Source of the DNA: Escherichia phage brachmannus
Length of the DNA stretch: 51,540 nt
Sequence record: ON711395.1
Reading direction: 5' to 3' (one strand)
Below are positions 14,297 to 44,956 of this stretch, piece after piece. The notes beneath the pieces are model-generated. The model saw only the letters and a program-made list of their open reading frames with translations, ran no database searches and was not told the origin of the DNA. The translations under genes were made by a program, and so were the position numbers. The first letter of the stretch is position 1. Each line of letters starts with the position of its first letter.

Positions 14297-15058
14297 ATGG
14301 CTAATAAAGAATCAGGTAGAGTTGAATTTGAGAACTGCCTACAAAGTTTGTACCCAGGAGAAATTATAACGCTTGTAGAGATTGACGGGACGAAGTTCGG
14401 AGCAAATATTTACCGATTTCACAATGAGAACATCTCTTATACTGCCGAGGAATTAATGCAAGCGCAGCAAACCGGAATCTTGCCGCCGAAAGATATTATT
14501 TTCCAGGGTGAGGTTTACGGAGCGCGGCCTTTCGGTGTGAGCGGGATTAACTTCACAAGTAACGGCAGGGCAGATAAGCCTCAGCTTATAGTGTCAAACC
14601 TTGACAGCAGGGTTAGCGCCATGATCAGAAATTACAATGGCATGATGCAAGCAAAGGTGACTTTCTGGATCACGGCAAAGGAATTTATCGGAGAAGGCGG
14701 GGCAATCAAAGATGGCGCTTACAGAAAATTGGTTTATTACATTGAGCGCCCAAGCCAGTATAATAGAGAGGTGGCGAAATTTGATCTGACGTCGCCTTAC
14801 GATATGGATGGACTGATGATCCCGCCGCGCATCACTCAAAGCGTTTGCTATTGGGCGCAAAGGGGGTGGTACAGGAGCGGAAAGGGTTGCTCTTATAACG
14901 GATCGGCAATGTTCGATAAAGACAATAAGCCAGTAACAGATCCATCGCAAGACTATTGCGCAGGAACTGTAACGGCTTGCAAATTGAGATTCGGTCAGCA
15001 AAACGAGTTGGATTTCGGCGGTTGCGCGGTGGCGTCACTGCTACGGAGGAATCAATAA
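14297..15058 (+). CDS. minor tail protein (lambda L-like)
   Basis: 253 aa with C-terminal cysteine cluster as in lambda gpL Fe-S site; synteny M-L-K-I-J. Confidence 0.7.
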   Translation: MANKESGRVEFENCLQSLYPGEIITLVEIDGTKFGANIYRFHNENISYTAEELMQAQQTGILPPKDIIFQGEVYGARPFGVSGINFTSNGRADKPQLIVSNLDSRVSAMIRNYNGMMQAKVTFWITAKEFIGEGGAIKDGAYRKLVYYIERPSQYNREVAKFDLTSPYDMDGLMIPPRITQSVCYWAQRGWYRSGKGCSYNGSAMFDKDNKPVTDPSQDYCAGTVTACKLRFGQQNELDFGGCAVASLLRRNQ

Positions 15059-15789
15059 TGATTAGTGCAAAAATTAAACTTGAAATAATGCAGCACGTTA
15101 AAGAGGAATACCCTAAAGAGGCTTGCGGCGTCATAACTCAAAAGTCACGGGTACAGAAATATCACCGCATAACCAACGTGCATGACGATCCAGAAAATCA
15201 TTTTGAAATGGACGCCGTAGAATACGCTGAATCGCTCGACAAAGGCGAATTAATCGCGGTGGTGCATTCCCATTGCGGTGATGGTGCTAGTACGATACCG
15301 AGCGCGCACGACTCATGTATGTGCGATGAAATGGGTGTGTCGTGGATTATAGTGTCATGGCCCGAAGGTGATATGAGAATTGTCGAGCCGCAGGAGAGGC
15401 AGCTTATCGGTCGACCGTGGTCGCTTGGGTCGTTCGATTGCTGGGGTCTTATCATGGCGTGGCATAAACAGCACGGAGTAGTATTGAATGACTTCCGAAA
15501 GCCTTACGAGTGGTGGAAGTCAGAATATGGTGAAAATCTTTACCAGGATAATTATTTGAAAGAGGGATTTGTTGAAACTAACGAACCTCCAAAACCTGGT
15601 GATATGGTGATTATGCAGCTATCATCGCCAGTCTGGAATCATGCGGGGATTTATTTGGGTAACAATCAGCTATTACATCATGCGTTTGGAAAGCTATCTC
15701 GCATTGACTTGTATTCTGGATGGTATCAGGAGCACACTGTGAAAATTTGCCGACATAAGGATCTGAAATATGACATTGAAAGTAATTAA
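15058..15789 (+). CDS. tail tip protein (lambda K-like; JAB/MPN + NlpC/P60 domains)
   Basis: ATG 15058 overlaps stop of L gene; HSH...D JAMM-like motif and Cys/His NlpC/P60-like motifs (DCWGL, HAGIY). Confidence 0.75.
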   Translation: MISAKIKLEIMQHVKEEYPKEACGVITQKSRVQKYHRITNVHDDPENHFEMDAVEYAESLDKGELIAVVHSHCGDGASTIPSAHDSCMCDEMGVSWIIVSWPEGDMRIVEPQERQLIGRPWSLGSFDCWGLIMAWHKQHGVVLNDFRKPYEWWKSEYGENLYQDNYLKEGFVETNEPPKPGDMVIMQLSSPVWNHAGIYLGNNQLLHHAFGKLSRIDLYSGWYQEHTVKICRHKDLKYDIESN

Positions 15790-24533: not shown

Positions 24534-24545
24534 TAACAAAAAGCC

Positions 24546-24577
24546 CCGCATATGCGGGGCTTTTTTAGTCTAACGTG
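24546..24577. terminator. bidirectional terminator after ssb
   Basis: AAAAAGCCCCGCA-TAT-GCGGGGCTTTTTT. Confidence 0.75.
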
Positions 24578-25089
24578 GTTGGTTTGTTTACCAGTGCCTC
24601 TACAACCGCTTTTAGCTCGTCAATTTCTTTTCTCATCTCATCGTTTTCCGCTTTCAGTTTCTTAACGTGGTGAATCAGTGGAACAGTGAGGCGGTCATAC
24701 ATAACGCCTTCCGCCACCATGCCATTACTTGAAGCAATGGCAGGATCTTCTCCTTCTTGCAGCGGTCGCCAGTGAACGTACTCCGGCGCAATTTCTCCAA
24801 CCTCTTCCGCGATTAGCCCGTACCATCCCCAATCTTTACGGTCGCTTTCACAAGTTGACCGATACCAAACAGGACGCATTTCAAGCATCAGATCCGCATA
24901 TTCATCAATAACCGATTCTACGCTGCGCTTATAACGAGAAGAGGAAGTGGAGCGTAAAACTTGCGAAACTCCAGCATTTGGATCAAGCCATAAGTTTGCT
25001 GATTGAGCGGTTGTGTTAAGATTAAATAAATAAAATGCATCGTTACCAGTTAGGGGGTAAAAACTCCCACTATACCTTCCGCTATCCAA
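24565..25089 (-). CDS. tail fibre C-terminal intramolecular chaperone-like domain protein (peptidase S74-like)
   Basis: SSSRYKRSVESVIDEY and YGLIAEEVGEIAPE resemble S74 chaperone domain motifs; C-terminal coiled coil; only TTG start available, likely fused with upstream ORF. Confidence 0.45.
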   Translation of the reverse strand: MDSGRYSGSFYPLTGNDAFYLFNLNTTAQSANLWLDPNAGVSQVLRSTSSSRYKRSVESVIDEYADLMLEMRPVWYRSTCESDRKDWGWYGLIAEEVGEIAPEYVHWRPLQEGEDPAIASSNGMVAEGVMYDRLTVPLIHHVKKLKAENDEMRKEIDELKAVVEALVNKPTTLD

Positions 25090-25238
25090 CTCGGACGATA
25101 GATCATTTTGTTTAGATACAACTTCAACTTATTGTCAACATCAGTAGTTGATGCTTTTCCTGCAACATCCTGTTTTAGTGTTGAAACGTCATTTTTCAGC
25201 TTCGTTATATCACTAGGTATAACAGTGACTGTAGCCAT
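25050..25238 (-). CDS. small coiled-coil protein, probable N-terminal part of split fibre/chaperone gene
   Basis: 62-aa ORF ending in T5C5 run; downstream ORF continues in -1 frame. Confidence 0.35.
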   Translation of the reverse strand: MATVTVIPSDITKLKNDVSTLKQDVAGKASTTDVDNKLKLYLNKMIYRPSWIAEGIVGVFTP

Positions 25239-25250
25239 TTTCCTAACTCC

Positions 25251-25529
25251 TTAAGCCCATTCTCTAATAGGCCGATCTAACTCAACCACGTATCCATTAA
25301 AAATTACGGCATCAAACTTATCATCAATGATTCGCACATTAACGAAATAGCCGTCGTTCTTTCGCGCAATCTCCTCGCCATCGTCATATCGTGCAATTAC
25401 TGTATAAGTATTGCCGATTACATCGAGCAGGGTTGCATCCTGAATGGATTCGTTTTCGTTCCATTCAATTTCTTCCAGAAAGGCGGAAAACTCCGCCTTG
25501 TCTACAAATTTCAGTGTTAAATCACGCAT
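25251..25529 (-). CDS. hypothetical protein (tail fibre-associated)
   Basis: ATG overlapping stop of tail fibre gene. Confidence 0.4.
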   Translation of the reverse strand: MRDLTLKFVDKAEFSAFLEEIEWNENESIQDATLLDVIGNTYTVIARYDDGEEIARKNDGYFVNVRIIDDKFDAVIFNGYVVELDRPIREWA

Positions 25530-27508
25530 TATACAATTTCCCCCAATTGATGATCTGTTAGTGCCTTGTGCCATATACGGAAGTTTCTAACGTGACCGAA
25601 AAGATGGCGTTCGCCTGTACTTGTTTGTCCGCCAATCCTTATAGTAGCCGTTGATACTATATATCTCCATTCCGTTTTTGTTTCGCTTGATATTCTGGCA
25701 TTACTTACACAACAAGTATTGTAATCACTCTTTACTCTCATTCCTATGATCATCTTTTTTAGTTTTGCATTCTCGTAAACCCTTCTTTTTGATCCACCTA
25801 TATCGCAATAAGGGAATCCATCATTATCGCCATCGGCAGGCCCGAAAGCAAGAATAATTGCCGCACCAGATTGATGACCTCCAGTATCGAAAACACGAGG
25901 CGCAGCATTTGGCGTTATATACCAGTTCTTATGTACCTCACAAAGAACAGTAAAAGGAAGATTATAAAGGTTATTCTTGATTGGGATTGTCACCATATCG
26001 CTTGCCCGTGTTACTGGAGTCTCTTCTGTAATAATAAACGATGAAGCGCACACACCTCCTTCAACTTGAGGGGTAGCAATATAAATATAATCACCTGCAC
26101 CAGTTCCCCCTCCATCTTTTGCTGGTGCATACTGCACCATTGCACCGATCATATTTTCTGTATCAAGCGCTTTAATTGTTGCCTCAAAGAAAATCCATTT
26201 GCTTGCTTCATCTTTAACAGCCCTTGCAGTAATACGATTTGCAGCGCCGCCAGTTTTTTCAATTGATAAATCTGTCAGATTTACGTAAGCATCACCCAAA
26301 AATGCATAAGAAGATCCATCGTAGTTTTCAAATCGTAATCGGCATCTTAAATTTGGAGTCCCACTTTGCGCCCTGCATGATATGGTTACATACTTTTCAT
26401 TTCCTGTTACATCAAAACCTCTACTGCCGGAAACGGTTACTATGTTAATCGCTGAAGTTTGTCCTACCATTTCTGGTTTTAATGTAAATTTTGCGTACTG
26501 GAATCCGAAATCATCTACACCTGATCTATCTAAGATCATATTTGATGACTTGTTCCATTTTGAAGGATTGGTACTATTTATAAGAAGGTTTGTTCTTTGC
26601 CCCTCAATGAGCAGACCATCCTTTTCAAATCTAGGTTCATCAATAGCAGCATTAGTAAGCACCCCAGACTTATTAATGTAAGTAGCGGTTGATGCTCGTT
26701 TAAACTTAACTATCTTGTCACCTGGCATCGTGATCTCATCGTCACCTATAACAATCTTTTTGTATGACGGCGAGAATCCGGTAATCATATCCAGGGAGTC
26801 ATTAAATGGTATCCACACGTCCGGCAACGGTTGCAATAAGTCCTTGTAAGGTTCTGCCGCCTGCTTTGCGTATTCCTCCGCTTGATCTCGCGCACTTTCA
26901 GCTCCTGCCTTTGCAGTGTTCGCAGCGTCACGCGCGGATTCAGCGCCAGACTTTGCTGCTTCAGCGCCAGTCTTTGCAGTGTTTGCAGCGTCGCGCGCGG
27001 ATTCAGCGGCAGCCTTTGCAGTATCAGCACCTTTCTTGCTATTCGCTGCATTTGTTGCGCTTGTCTTCGCGTTATTCTCGCTGGTTTTAGCTGCCTGCTG
27101 GCTTGCTGCTGCTGCGTCAGCATTTGTCTTTACGTCTTCCTGGATCTTCTGTAGCTTATCCCAATCAAAATCCTTGATGATCTCAATAAATCCAGCAAAC
27201 TCCGATTCCTTCCCCTGGTAATAACGCAGCGTTTCCGCTACGTCTTGCGCAAGACCGTCAACCGTTAACGAGTCATGAAGCAAGATCAGGTAATTTGTCT
27301 TCTGGACTACCGCGCCGCCAGTAGTAATTGCGCGAATGCTTGTATCGCTAATCACTTCTGTAATCACAGCAGCTTGCAAAGGTTGAGCAAGAAAGAAAAT
27401 AGTTGCGCCTGGGCGAATCAATGTTAATTGCTCACGCCATTTTGTACCGTAACCAGTTACATAACCTTGCTCGTCCATAGACGCTTGGCCTTGTCTGTAA
27501 ATCGCCAT
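25529..27508 (-). CDS. tail fibre protein
   Basis: about 660 aa; Ala/Ser/Thr-rich tandem repeats typical of fibre shafts; C-terminal lectin-like region (NFRIWHKALTDHQLGEI); ATG 27506-27508 with AGGAGG RBS. Confidence 0.7.
   Translation of the reverse strand: MAIYRQGQASMDEQGYVTGYGTKWREQLTLIRPGATIFFLAQPLQAAVITEVISDTSIRAITTGGAVVQKTNYLILLHDSLTVDGLAQDVAETLRYYQGKESEFAGFIEIIKDFDWDKLQKIQEDVKTNADAAAASQQAAKTSENNAKTSATNAANSKKGADTAKAAAESARDAANTAKTGAEAAKSGAESARDAANTAKAGAESARDQAEEYAKQAAEPYKDLLQPLPDVWIPFNDSLDMITGFSPSYKKIVIGDDEITMPGDKIVKFKRASTATYINKSGVLTNAAIDEPRFEKDGLLIEGQRTNLLINSTNPSKWNKSSNMILDRSGVDDFGFQYAKFTLKPEMVGQTSAINIVTVSGSRGFDVTGNEKYVTISCRAQSGTPNLRCRLRFENYDGSSYAFLGDAYVNLTDLSIEKTGGAANRITARAVKDEASKWIFFEATIKALDTENMIGAMVQYAPAKDGGGTGAGDYIYIATPQVEGGVCASSFIITEETPVTRASDMVTIPIKNNLYNLPFTVLCEVHKNWYITPNAAPRVFDTGGHQSGAAIILAFGPADGDNDGFPYCDIGGSKRRVYENAKLKKMIIGMRVKSDYNTCCVSNARISSETKTEWRYIVSTATIRIGGQTSTGERHLFGHVRNFRIWHKALTDHQLGEIV
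26880..27120 (-). repeat. intragenic tandem repeats in tail fibre gene (Ala-rich shaft repeats)
   Basis: repeated DNA blocks CTTTGCAGTGTT(C/T)GCAGCGTC(A/G)CGCGCGGATTCAGCG; protein AESARDAANTAK repeats. Confidence 0.6.
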
Positions 27509-44062: not shown

Positions 44063-44323
44063 ATGTTAAAACTTGCTGACATTAAATTCCAGATCACCTT
44101 CGAATCTCGCGGCATTGGTCATTACATTTTTACCGATGAAAAAACATGCCATAAGGTTGATATGAATAGCGACAAACTAAGCCCATCAGACATGGAGATT
44201 GAACACTTCATTGATGCGCACAATACGCAGTACAACGCACTTAAAGACTATGGCTATGCAATGCCAGGATATACCAGCTTCCACTACAAGCCATATAAAG
44301 GCCAGGTGTTGCCAGTGCGCTAA
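44063..44323 (+). CDS. hypothetical protein
   Basis: 86 aa. Confidence 0.45.
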   Translation: MLKLADIKFQITFESRGIGHYIFTDEKTCHKVDMNSDKLSPSDMEIEHFIDAHNTQYNALKDYGYAMPGYTSFHYKPYKGQVLPVR

Positions 44324-44344
44324 CCGGAACGCGCAGAGATTCCG

Positions 44345-44956
44345 ATGGTCGAGATGAAAACATGCGACTACAAAAAGCTGTGGTGCTTAAGTGTGGACAA
44401 TATCAAGTATCCGATCACGTTCTACACGGTTGGTAATTCAACGATTCGATTCACATCGCGCGACAATGGCGTTTATAGCGATGGTACGAAATCAGAGTTG
44501 AAAGTTGATTTCTTTGTCAACGGTCACAATAGATACAATCCGCACAACGAAAAAGATAAAGTGTATTACGTGGAAGACATTACAAAACACTTGTTTGGAG
44601 AAACTCCATTCGGCGGCGGTAAGACGTCAATTCAAAAAATCATTGGCGATGAGATCCACAAAGCGGCTGCCGAAATGAAAGCGCCTGGAGGCTGGCGCAT
44701 TGACAAGAGCGCATTTGCAAATCAAGAAATCGTAACGCAGGGCGCAATTGAAGATATGCCAGTTGCAGCCACTCTAAAAGGAGTCCGGCTTGATGACGGC
44801 ACCTGGTATGAAGTAACGGCTACACCAAAGACGATCGAGATTCATGATGACGTTGTTATCCTTCTGCTTCACTACGGCGGCTATAAAAACCGGACGATTG
44901 CAGGTGAGACCAGCATTAAGCGCGGAACGATGGTTAAGTGGAAGGTGAAGATTTGA
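44345..44956 (+). CDS. hypothetical protein
   Basis: 203 aa. Confidence 0.5.
   Translation: MVEMKTCDYKKLWCLSVDNIKYPITFYTVGNSTIRFTSRDNGVYSDGTKSELKVDFFVNGHNRYNPHNEKDKVYYVEDITKHLFGETPFGGGKTSIQKIIGDEIHKAAAEMKAPGGWRIDKSAFANQEIVTQGAIEDMPVAATLKGVRLDDGTWYEVTATPKTIEIHDDVVILLLHYGGYKNRTIAGETSIKRGTMVKWKVKI

What the first reader, a model, noticed from the sequence alone, without database searches (positions are those of the whole stretch)
24565..25238. Tail fibre chaperone-domain gene split at a T5C5 homopolymer
The 62-aa ORF (25050-25238) ends GTT TTT ACC CCC TAA, and the downstream 174-aa ORF, which carries S74-like chaperone motifs, lies in the -1 frame with only a TTG start and no Shine-Dalgarno sequence. 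One extra base in the T or C run would fuse them into a single protein of about 236 aa with an N-terminal coiled coil. This could be a homopolymer sequencing error, a genuine frameshift mutation or slippage-based expression.
Basis: seen in the sequence. Interest (0 to 1): 0.5.

Follow-up and report, generated by a model that had tools for sequence, protein, structure and literature searches.

The report
Broken branch tail-fibre gene, recurrent in relatives
A small tail-fibre gene of this T1-like coliphage is knocked out by a one-base deletion, at a different spot from the one first proposed, and the same gene is independently broken in about a third of related phage genomes, which points to repeated real loss of a dispensable host-recognition part rather than a sequencing error or a special decoding trick.

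Summary
Window 24565-25238 (- strand) is one gene that is intact (224-245 aa) in most Warwickvirus (Drexlerviridae, T1-like) relatives. The T5-A-C5 tract (25053-25063) is unchanged and is read in frame as S-F-Y-P-L. The lesion is a missing A 50 nt upstream: relatives have CTAAAACAAA and the window has CTAAACAAA (25111-25113).

The protein looks like a minimal LtfB-type branch fibre. It has an LtfB-like N-terminus (MATVTVIPSDITKLK), a short coiled coil and a C-terminal S74 self-cleaving chaperone domain. It lacks the receptor-binding body.

The gene is broken in 13 of 34 related genomes, by at least 10 different lesions. Intact copies show dN/dS of about 0.1-0.2. The window has no other frameshift in 76 shared genes, despite 77 homopolymers of 6 nt or more.

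The best reading is a genuine loss-of-function mutation in a conditionally dispensable fibre gene, analogous to the lambda PaPa stf frameshift and to fibre loss in T5-like phages on rough K-12. Programmed slippage is not supported. A sequencing error cannot be excluded without reads. This is ordinary in kind; the recurrence is the modestly interesting part.

The parts
24565..25238 (-). Whole disrupted gene (674 nt). It is the orthologue of the 675-738 nt single ORF of Warwickvirus relatives: a stand-alone mini LtfB-type branch fibre with an S74 domain.
   Evidence: the gene is intact in swan01, JK16, XY3, tunus, PeterMerian, G3B1 and others; tblastn with the swan01 protein gives two HSPs, residues 1-44 in frame -2 and residues 43-224 in frame -1.
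25111..25113 (-). Site of the lesion: an A3 run where all relatives have A4 (CTAAAACAAA). The -1 frameshift falls at codon 42/43.
   Evidence: Alignments; coordinates checked.
25053..25063 (-). It is unaltered in the window and is read as S-F-Y-P-L in intact genes. The C5 run is a recurrent +1 insertion hot spot (C6) in relatives.
   Evidence: C6 in JLBYU19, orkinos and AV105 on three different sequence backgrounds. C6-type truncated products also occur in Logan assemblies (P0017, P0139-P0141).
25050..25052 (-). Premature TAA reached in the shifted frame. It lies out of frame in intact relatives.
25114..25238 (-). Part still in the native frame (codons 1 to about 42). It holds the LtfB-like N-terminal motif MATVTVIPSDITKLK and coiled-coil repeats (DITKLKNDVSTLKQDV). 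The repeat number varies among relatives by in-frame 21-nt or 63-nt units.
   Evidence: 13/17 and 13/15 identical to the N-terminus of the LtfB-type fibres of the T5-like phages BUCT632 and mar004NP2.
24565..25110 (-). Remainder of the gene, now out of frame with the start. It encodes native residues 43-224: the conserved pre-cleavage module FYPLTG...LDPN...RSTS and the S74 intramolecular chaperone domain. The TTG-initiated 174-aa ORF (24565-25089) lies within it.
24928..24945 (-). S-S-S-R-Y-K (native residues 99-104). This is the predicted autocleavage Ser and catalytic Lys of the S74 domain (pattern S-x-x-R-x-K).
   Evidence: the Lys is invariant and the Ser is at least 90% conserved in 22 homologues. 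One search gives the positions; the motif aligns with S-D-S-R-x-K of the T5-like LtfB-type fibres.
24775..24945 (-). Pfam PF13884 (Peptidase_S74, 'chaperone of endosialidase') match.
   Evidence: ORF residues 49-105, E=1.6e-4, 22.4 bits against a cut-off of 22; a family profile hits the C-terminus of PDB 8hqz_d, 'L-shaped tail fiber assembly', at E=2.1e-5.
25247..25252 (-). Shine-Dalgarno sequence AAGGAG, 8 nt upstream of the ATG at 25238.
   Evidence: Read directly from the sequence.
24538..24564 (.). GC-rich hairpin GCCCCGC-ATAT-GCGGGGC flanked by an A-run and a T-run. It is a likely bidirectional terminator shared with the convergent SSB gene.
   Evidence: Read directly from the sequence. 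The consensus scan did not list it.
25251..25529 (-). 92-aa protein of unknown function (MRDLTLKF...REWA). It is the middle gene of the conserved three-gene lateral-fibre cassette.
   Evidence: annotated in relatives; 46-49% identical to the gene in the same position in the T5-like phages mar004NP2 and BUCT632.
25529..27508 (-). Main lateral tail fibre gene (LtfA position). It is intact here and annotated as a single CDS in the Warwickvirus relatives listed.
   Evidence: The 3' part of the gene (gene nt 696-1980, roughly its last two thirds) is 85-92% nt identical to T5-like phage fibre genes.

Best explanation
The window is a complete 51,540-bp genome of a Warwickvirus (T1-like Drexlerviridae) coliphage. 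Positions 24565-25238 (- strand) are one gene, the third of a three-gene lateral-tail-fibre cassette: main fibre, a 92-aa protein, then this gene.

The intact product (224 aa) is a minimal LtfB-type branch fibre. It has:
- a short N-terminal motif shared with the LtfB-type fibres of T5-like phages, presumed to dock it on the main fibre;
- a variable coiled coil;
- a conserved module of about 45 aa;
- a C-terminal S74 intramolecular chaperone, which would fold the trimer in cis and then cut itself off at Ser99 using Lys104.

In this genome one A has been lost from an A4 run (25111-25113). Translation shifts frame after codon 42 and stops at 25050-25052. The downstream 174-aa ORF has only a TTG start and no ribosome-binding site, so the gene is most likely null.

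This is most likely a genuine mutation. It is one instance of a recurrent pattern in which this conditionally dispensable fibre branch is lost, probably under selection or relaxed constraint during growth on hosts that do not need it, such as rough laboratory E. coli.

Shown: the lesion, the orthology, the domain content, the recurrence and the purifying selection. Inferred: docking on the main fibre, self-cleavage, and the selective cause.
For: Lesion and orthology:
- All 16 relatives aligned have A4 where the window has A3. The T5-A-C5 tract is unchanged in the window.
- tblastn with the swan01 protein splits at residue 43/44 into two frames.
- The nearest allele, G3B1, is intact and differs at 5 nt only.

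Not a generally error-prone assembly:
- Of 81 swan01 CDS, 73 are full length without a stop in the window. This gene is the only frameshifted one.
- This holds although the window has 77 homopolymers of 6 nt or more and 290 of 5 nt or more.
- The genome also carries a TCA->TAA nonsense codon at 44321-44323 in an accessory gene. That cannot be a homopolymer artefact.

Recurrence: 13 of 34 distinct database genomes have this gene broken.
- Frameshifts and deletions: -G (ityhuna), a 13-nt deletion (KMB46), +CC (JLBYU10), and C5->C6 (JLBYU19, orkinos, AV105).
- Nonsense: TAC->TAA (JLBYU07; EC195/EC125), E->stop (tuinn), GGA->TGA (Phunderstruck), GAA->TAA (JLBYU01).
- A probable 3' frameshift (SECphi27).
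- Further broken copies: a TA insertion in two Logan assemblies, and an in-frame stop in a 65%-identical metagenomic relative, L020.
- Close sequence pairs carry different lesions, so the events are independent and recent.

Specificity:
- The 3x larger main fibre gene is annotated as a single CDS in the Warwickvirus relatives listed.
- In orkinos this is the only broken gene. In ityhuna it is one of at most two.

Functional gene in the long term:
- dN/dS is 0.08-0.35 among intact copies and about 0.1 against L020.
- Stand-alone homologues of 221-269 aa with the same N-terminus are widespread in E. coli prophages, with clusters of 2,928 and 650 members.

Identity:
- PF13884 hit and a profile hit to the C-terminus of an L-shaped tail fibre in the PDB.
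- The same C-terminal module ends large fibres in other Drexlerviridae-like contigs and prophages.
- The N-terminus and gene order match mar004NP2 MAR004NP2_00162, which PMC6563131 calls an ltfB orthologue.

Precedent:
- About 30% of DT571/2 clones grown on E. coli C600 spontaneously lost lateral-fibre function (PMC4728585).
- A lateral-fibre deletion mutant of the Drexlerviridae phage Bas13 outcompeted wild type (bioRxiv 10.1101/2023.05.21.541620).
Against: - No reads are available, so a single-base assembly or sequencing error at this one site cannot be excluded.
- The A3 allele is unique to this genome: the 62-aa ORF cluster has one member.
- The selective driver is not tested. Hosts of the broken isolates include non-K-12 strains (ESBL128, KMB575). 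One broken copy comes from a metagenome contig (L020), so some losses may arise in nature rather than in the laboratory.
- If loss of lateral fibres as such were favoured, the larger main fibre gene should be hit more often. No split of it was seen, which is unexplained.
- Docking on the main fibre, presence in the virion and self-cleavage are inferred from homology only.
- The AlphaFold monomer model was too poor to use (pLDDT 50.8).
- Eight of the 21 genomes counted as intact were judged from protein length or annotation rather than from sequence I read.
Confidence: 0.7

Rival explanations
1. Sequencing or assembly error: the phage really has A4 and an intact 224-aa gene, and one A was dropped in the consensus.
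For: - A single-base indel in a homopolymer is the classic assembly error.
- The allele is unique to this record.
- The nearest allele, G3B1, is intact and only 5 nt away.
Against: - The run is only 4 nt long. The window has 77 runs of 6 nt or more and 290 of 5 nt or more, yet no other frameshift in 76 shared genes.
- The genome has a second null mutation that is a substitution (TCA->TAA).
- The same gene is broken in 13 of 34 relatives from many laboratories, five of them by nonsense substitutions. A real lesion here therefore has a high prior.
Confidence: 0.17
2. Slippage-based expression: ribosomal -1 slippage at the T5 or C5/stop site, or polymerase slippage, fuses the two ORFs so that a full-length product is still made. 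This would be a programmed or tolerated recoding event.
For: - The shifted frame ends ACC CCC TAA. A P-site tRNA-Pro could re-pair one base back on the C5 run at the stop and continue as L-T-G-N in the native frame (sequence).
- Homopolymer-driven reversible frameshifts have been proposed as phage contingency loci, and Warwickvirus has the highest density of such runs among the BASEL genera (bioRxiv 10.1101/2025.10.21.683753).
Against: - 21 of 34 relatives encode the protein in one frame straight through this tract, so no two-frame organisation is conserved.
- A slip there would leave about 20 wrong residues replacing a segment that is well conserved among the close relatives and whose FYPLTG end persists in distant stand-alone homologues.
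- Lesions in relatives lie at many positions and include stop codons that slippage cannot rescue.
- There is no evidence of a stimulatory structure, and none was sought because the premise fails.
Confidence: 0.03
3. Neutral decay of a vestigial remnant: the gene is a leftover 3' end of an older, larger fibre gene, displaced when the LamG-type fibre cassette was acquired. It has no function and is decaying at random.
For: - In other Drexlerviridae-like contigs (L018, L019) the same C-terminal 190-aa module is the end of a fibre of at least 698 aa that sits directly before the SSB gene.
- The protein lacks any recognisable receptor-binding body.
Against: - dN/dS is about 0.1-0.2 among intact copies and about 0.1 against a 65%-identical relative with the same stand-alone layout.
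- Each broken copy carries a single lesion rather than accumulated damage.
- The gene has its own Shine-Dalgarno sequence, ATG and LtfB-like N-terminus.
- Stand-alone homologues are abundant in E. coli prophages.
- By my own estimate from Drake's rule (about 0.003 mutations per genome per replication), neutral fixation through plaque bottlenecks would give roughly 1e-4, not 38%.
Confidence: 0.08

Closest known systems
LtfB, the branch subunit of the two-protein lateral tail fibres of T5-like phages DT57C and DT571/2. Its orthologue MAR004NP2_00162 in mar004NP2 and the 579-aa fibre of BUCT632 belong here. The N-terminus is related to phiEco32 gp15.
   Same: - The gene lies immediately downstream of the main lateral fibre gene, with the same small 92-aa ORF in between.
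- The N-terminus MATVTVIPSDITKLK matches MVTKTVIPTDITKLK (13/15 to 13/17 identical).
- It has a C-terminal S74 self-cleaving chaperone with the S-x-S-R-x-K motif.
- It is dispensable on rough hosts and genetically unstable (PMC4728585).
   Different: - It is 224 aa rather than 579-589 aa. The receptor-binding body of about 350-430 aa is missing, leaving only a coiled coil and a module of about 45 aa before the cleavage site.
- It is found in Drexlerviridae and, as a widespread stand-alone family, in E. coli prophages.
- It was not compared directly with the DT57C LtfB sequence.
C-terminal intramolecular chaperone domain (MEROPS/Pfam Peptidase_S74, PF13884) of endosialidase K1F, the phage T5 L-shaped fibre pb1 and GA-1 gp12.
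   Same: - Pfam match at threshold.
- Profile match to the C-terminus of a solved L-shaped tail fibre.
- Conserved Ser and Lys in S-x-x-R-x-K, and a C-terminal position followed by a long helix.
   Different: - The passenger is tiny (about 98 aa).
- Database names such as 'chaperone of endosialidase' or 'putative lateral tail fiber chaperone' suggest a trans-acting chaperone for the main fibre. The family is known (my knowledge) to act in cis on its own polypeptide.
- Cleavage was not tested.
The lambda PaPa stf frameshift (Hendrix and Duda 1992; from my own knowledge) and spontaneous fibre-less mutants of T5-like phages grown on E. coli C600 (PMC4728585).
   Same: - A one-base frameshift inactivates a side or lateral tail-fibre gene that is dispensable on rough K-12.
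- The loss is recurrent or rapid in laboratory propagation.
- A Drexlerviridae fibre-deletion mutant outcompeted wild type.
   Different: - Here many independent alleles are seen across deposited genomes of a whole genus.
- They hit the small branch gene rather than the main fibre gene.
- Laboratory selection is inferred, not shown.
Phage contingency loci: homopolymer tracts giving reversible +/-1 frameshifts (T2 agt, T4 rIIA; bioRxiv 10.1101/2025.10.21.683753).
   Same: - There are +/-1 indels in homopolymers of a non-essential gene.
- The C5 tract recurrently becomes C6 in relatives.
- Warwickvirus is rich in homopolymers.
   Different: - The window's tract is only A4, and C5 is below the 6-nt criterion used there.
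- Most lesions in relatives are substitutions or multi-base indels that slippage cannot revert.

Membership tests
Peptidase S74 / C-terminal intramolecular chaperone domain (PF13884) | Sequence match to the family model at or above the curated threshold. | tested here: met
   22.4 bits against a cut-off of 22.0, E=1.6e-4 (marginal). PF13884 is precomputed for many homologues; a family profile hits the C-terminal 123 residues of PDB 8hqz_d (L-shaped tail fiber) at E=2.1e-5.
Peptidase S74 / C-terminal intramolecular chaperone domain (PF13884) | Ser-Lys catalytic pair in the S-x-x-R-x-K cleavage motif. | tested here: met
   S99-S-S-R-Y-K104 (window 24928-24945). The Lys is invariant and the Ser is at least 90% conserved in 22 homologues. 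The motif aligns with S-D-S-R-x-K of the T5-like fibres.
Peptidase S74 / C-terminal intramolecular chaperone domain (PF13884) | The domain is the C-terminal end of a fibre or spike polypeptide. | tested here: met
   The domain occupies native residues 99-224. The same module ends fibres of at least 698 aa in L018 and L019 and in prophage fibres.
Peptidase S74 / C-terminal intramolecular chaperone domain (PF13884) | The chaperone fold. | tested here: inconclusive
   The AlphaFold2 monomer model has mean pLDDT 50.8 and pTM 0.32. No fold search was attempted on it.
Peptidase S74 / C-terminal intramolecular chaperone domain (PF13884) | Autoproteolytic release after trimerisation. | not testable with these tools
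   This needs biochemistry, or virion mass spectrometry of an intact relative.
LtfB-type branch fibre of branched lateral tail fibres (DT57C type) | N-terminal segment shared with LtfB orthologues (the presumed docking region). | tested here: met
   13/15 identical to MAR004NP2_00162, which PMC6563131 calls an ltfB orthologue. 13/17 identical to the BUCT632 fibre. DT57C LtfB itself was not compared.
LtfB-type branch fibre of branched lateral tail fibres (DT57C type) | The gene is encoded directly downstream of the main lateral fibre gene. | tested here: met
   The three-gene order is the same in the window, in mar004NP2 and in BUCT632. The 92-aa middle gene is 46-49% identical.
LtfB-type branch fibre of branched lateral tail fibres (DT57C type) | A receptor-recognising body of several hundred residues between the N-terminus and the chaperone domain. 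| tested here: not met
   224 aa against 579-589 aa. The alignment shows the whole central part absent. I therefore describe it as a minimal LtfB-like protein, not as a bona fide LtfB.
LtfB-type branch fibre of branched lateral tail fibres (DT57C type) | Physical attachment to the main fibre and presence in the virion. | not testable with these tools
   This needs virion proteomics or cryo-EM.
Programmed ribosomal frameshifting or recoding site | A two-frame organisation and shift site conserved among homologues. | tested here: not met
   21 of 34 relatives have a single ORF. Lesions in the other 13 are at different positions and of different kinds.
Recurrent loss-of-function of a dispensable tail-fibre gene (lambda PaPa stf type) | Independent inactivating alleles in separate isolates, against a background of long-term purifying selection. 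| tested here: met
   There are at least 12 independent events in 34 genomes, and close pairs carry different lesions. dN/dS is about 0.1-0.2.
Recurrent loss-of-function of a dispensable tail-fibre gene (lambda PaPa stf type) | A fitness advantage, or no cost, of the null allele on the propagation host. | not testable with these tools
   Only literature precedents in other phages are available.

The most novel reading that the evidence does not exclude
The mini branch-fibre gene is an on/off bet-hedging locus of Warwickvirus populations. Different hosts (smooth or rough, or carrying a defence that senses this protein) select one state. The window's A3 allele would be one 'off' state caught by plaque purification.
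Probability: 0.12. Interest if true: 0.6.

Novelty: new member of a known kind. Interest (0 to 1): 0.38.

Why it matters
For this genome, the two small ORFs should be annotated as one frameshifted pseudogene of a lateral-fibre branch protein. They are not two hypothetical proteins or a 'chaperone'.

More broadly, about a third of deposited Warwickvirus genomes carry a null allele of this gene. Host-range predictions, receptor-binding-protein catalogues and therapeutic or engineering uses based on those sequences may therefore describe laboratory-adapted phages that lack part of their adsorption apparatus.

The stand-alone mini LtfB-like family is also abundant in E. coli prophages. It has no assigned function and almost no mature body. 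What such a stub does on a fibre is an open and testable question.

Tried and rejected
- A single-sequence search of solved structures gave only coiled-coil noise. A family profile was needed to get a hit.
- The AlphaFold2 monomer prediction of an intact homologue from a 22-sequence alignment was poor (pLDDT 50.8). I ran no fold search and did not use the model.
- The metagenome scan found only one complete close relative (L057, intact) and one fragment. IMG/VR gave one intact copy (L017) and one broken copy (L020). This is too few to say whether null alleles are as common in nature as in isolates.
- The consensus terminator scan missed the obvious hairpin after the gene.
- A first multi-term literature search was uninformative.
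- I considered and rejected these readings:
  - The 174-aa ORF is an independently expressed trans-acting chaperone. It has a TTG start, no Shine-Dalgarno sequence, and is an internal fragment of a conserved ORF.
  - The T5-A-C5 tract is the lesion site.
  - The gene is decaying neutrally as a vestigial remnant.
Full report
**What is in the sequence**

- On the - strand, a 62-aa ATG ORF (25050-25238) ends GTT TTT ACC CCC TAA.
- A 174-aa TTG ORF (24565-25089) overlaps it in the -1 frame.
- The 174-aa ORF matches Pfam Peptidase_S74, the 'chaperone of endosialidase' domain, just at threshold: 22.4 bits against 22, E=1.6e-4.
- The flagged tract is T5-A-C5 (25053-25063), not an uninterrupted T5C5 run.
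- A good Shine-Dalgarno sequence (AAGGAG, 25247-25252) precedes the ATG. None precedes the TTG.
- A GC-rich hairpin flanked by A and T runs (24538-24564) separates the gene from the convergent SSB gene.

**Where the window comes from**

- The region is 95-99% identical to many Escherichia phages of the genus Warwickvirus (Drexlerviridae, Tempevirinae; T1-like).
- Both ORFs are on record from one NCBI contig of 51,540 bp, so the window is a whole phage genome.
- In relatives such as swan01, JK16, XY3, tunus, PeterMerian and G3B1, the two ORFs are a single CDS of 675-738 nt. It is annotated 'hypothetical protein', 'chaperone of endosialidase' or 'putative lateral tail fiber chaperone'.

**Where the gene is actually broken**

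- The T5-A-C5 tract in the window is the same as in 12 of the 16 relatives aligned. Three carry C6 and ityhuna reads CCCAC. The intact genes read it in frame as AGT TTT TAC CCC CTA (S-F-Y-P-L). The TAA after it is out of frame there.
- The only indel between the window and the intact genes is one missing A, 50 nt upstream. All 16 relatives read CTAAAACAAA; the window reads CTAAACAAA, with A3 at 25111-25113.
- tblastn with the swan01 protein gives the same answer: residues 1-44 in one frame and 43-224 in another.
- The repaired protein is 224 aa, not about 236.
- An extra base in the T or C run would fuse the ORFs but leave about 20 residues garbled.

**What the protein is**

- The S74 motif S-S-S-R-Y-K (native residues 99-104, window 24928-24945) has its Lys invariant and its Ser nearly invariant in 22 homologues.
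- A family profile hits the C-terminal 123 residues of a solved 'L-shaped tail fiber' (PDB 8hqz_d) at E=2.1e-5.
- In other Drexlerviridae-like contigs and in prophages, the same C-terminal module of about 190 aa ends large fibres of at least 698 aa. It is therefore the usual cis-acting, self-cleaving chaperone of a fibre, not a separate chaperone.
- The main fibre gene upstream (25529-27508) shares 85-92% nt identity over gene nt 696-1980, roughly its last two thirds, with lateral fibre genes of T5-like phages.
- In BUCT632 and mar004NP2 that fibre gene is followed by a homologue of the window's 92-aa ORF (46-49% identity). Next comes a 579-589-aa fibre that starts MVTKTVIPTDITKLK and ends in an S74 domain.
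- The mar004NP2 gene is described in the literature as an orthologue of ltfB, the branch subunit of DT57C-type branched lateral fibres (PMC6563131; PMC4728585; PMC10713586).
- The window protein begins MATVTVIPSDITKLK (13/15 identical) and sits in the same position, but it lacks the whole central body. I therefore read it as a minimal LtfB-like branch fibre: N-terminal motif, coiled coil, a 45-aa module and the S74 domain.
- Stand-alone proteins of this design (221-269 aa) are common in E. coli prophages, in clusters of 2,928 and 650 sequences.

**The gene is broken again and again**

Of 34 distinct database genomes with this gene (40 records less 6 RefSeq duplicates), 13 have it inactivated.

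| Lesion | Genomes |
|---|---|
| -G | ityhuna |
| 13-nt deletion | KMB46 |
| +CC | JLBYU10 |
| C5->C6 in the flagged tract | JLBYU19, orkinos, AV105 |
| TAC->TAA | JLBYU07, EC195/EC125 |
| Glu->stop | tuinn |
| GGA->TGA | Phunderstruck |
| GAA->TAA | JLBYU01 |
| Probable 3' frameshift | SECphi27 |

- Further broken copies occur in read-archive assemblies: a TA insertion and several C6-type products. A 65%-identical metagenomic relative has an in-frame stop (L020).
- Closely related alleles carry different lesions, so the events are independent and recent:
  - AV105 and EC195 are 4 nt apart.
  - orkinos and tuinn are 6 nt apart.
  - ityhuna and KMB46 are 5 nt apart.
- Thirteen intact copies were checked in sequence or in the CDS table I read. 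Six were judged from protein length. Two were judged from identical search statistics.

**Controls**

- With 81 swan01 proteins as probes, the window has 73 full-length genes without stops, 5 absent, 1 divergent and only two defective. The defective ones are this gene and a TCA->TAA nonsense codon at 44321-44323 in an accessory 297-aa gene.
- This holds despite 77 homopolymers of 6 nt or more and 290 of 5 nt or more in the window. The assembly is therefore not prone to homopolymer errors.
- In orkinos this is the only broken gene. In ityhuna it is one of at most two.
- With a background of about 1% broken genes per genome, 13 of 34 has a binomial tail of about 8e-18. The background rate rests on three genomes only.
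- The three-fold larger main fibre gene is annotated as a single CDS in the Warwickvirus relatives listed (by annotation only).
- dN/dS among intact copies is 0.08-0.35 (0.1-0.2 for well-diverged pairs) and about 0.1 against L020. The gene is maintained by selection over the long term.

**Interpretation**

- Long-term constraint combined with many recent single-hit null alleles is the signature of a conditionally useful gene that is repeatedly lost.
- Known precedents:
  - The lambda PaPa stf frameshift (my own knowledge).
  - The finding that about 30% of DT571/2 clones grown on E. coli C600 had lost fibre function (PMC4728585).
  - A lateral-fibre deletion of the Drexlerviridae phage Bas13 that outcompeted wild type.
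- Lateral fibres of Drexlerviridae are thought to bind O-antigen and to be unnecessary on K-12 (PMC8594841).
- By a rough estimate from Drake's rule (my own knowledge), neutral fixation through plaque bottlenecks would be about 1e-4 per isolate. A frequency of 38% implies positive selection or standing natural polymorphism.
- I cannot tell which applies. Uncultivated samples gave only two intact copies and one broken copy.
- Why the small branch gene is hit rather than the main fibre gene is unexplained.

**Rival explanations**

- A sequencing error at this one site cannot be excluded without reads, but nothing supports it.
- Programmed or tolerated slippage is not supported.
  - Intact relatives need none.
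  - Lesions are scattered and include stop codons.
  - A slip at the C5/stop site would leave a garbled segment where the close relatives are well conserved.
- Neutral decay of a vestigial remnant is contradicted by the dN/dS values, by the single lesion per copy and by the abundance of stand-alone homologues.
- A recent preprint proposes homopolymer 'contingency loci' in phages and notes that Warwickvirus has the highest density of such runs among the BASEL genera. The recurrent C5->C6 change fits that idea. Most alleles here, however, are not revertible by slippage, and the window's own tract is only 4 nt long.

**Verdict**

- The added value is the correct lesion, the identification of the gene as a minimal LtfB-like branch fibre with a cis chaperone, and the observation that this gene is a recurrent target of inactivation across the genus.

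Noticed in passing
window 44321-44323 (+ strand), within 44063-44956: There is an in-frame TAA at codon 87 of the homologue of swan01 SWAN_00054, a 297-aa hypothetical protein. swan01 has TCA (Ser) there. This is a second null mutation in this genome, in an accessory gene that is absent from orkinos.
   Followed up: partly
relatives' copies of the gene (L008, L010, L012, L014, L053); L020; window 44321-44323: Where the codon change was read, every nonsense lesion is a G:C->T:A transversion: TAC->TAA (twice), GAA->TAA, GGA->TGA, and the window's TCA->TAA. The Glu->stop changes in tuinn and L020 must be too, because GAA or GAG can reach a stop only by G->T. No CAA, CAG or TGG transitions were seen, although the gene has at least 10 such sites. 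This could be an oxidative-damage signature.
   Followed up: no
window 25140-25238 and relatives: The N-terminal coiled coil varies by in-frame 21-nt and 63-nt repeat units, giving 224-, 231- and 245-aa forms of the protein. KMB46 has a 13-nt deletion inside the repeats.
   Followed up: partly
window 25251-27508; L042; L048: The whole three-gene lateral-fibre cassette (main fibre, 92-aa protein, LtfB-type gene) is shared between T1-like Warwickvirus and T5-like Tequintavirus phages. The 3' two thirds of the main fibre gene is 85-92% nt identical, which points to recent exchange between families.
   Followed up: partly
L045 (ityhuna) 14446-15226: The HtjA-like head-decoration gene of phage ityhuna appears split into two frames when compared with swan01 and orkinos.
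   Followed up: no
window, whole: Homopolymer density is high: 77 runs of 6 nt or more, 1.49 per kb. This matches the value reported for Warwickvirus, the highest among the BASEL genera, in a preprint on phage contingency loci.
   Followed up: partly
E. coli prophage proteins P0022, P0024 (no window coordinates): Stand-alone proteins of 227-234 aa with the same design are very abundant in E. coli genomes (clusters of 2,928 and 650 sequences). They share the MAT/VT-x-T-V-I-P-x-D-I-T-x-L-K N-terminus, the coiled coil, the FYPLTG module and the S74 domain. They are named only 'tail fiber domain-containing protein'.
   Followed up: no
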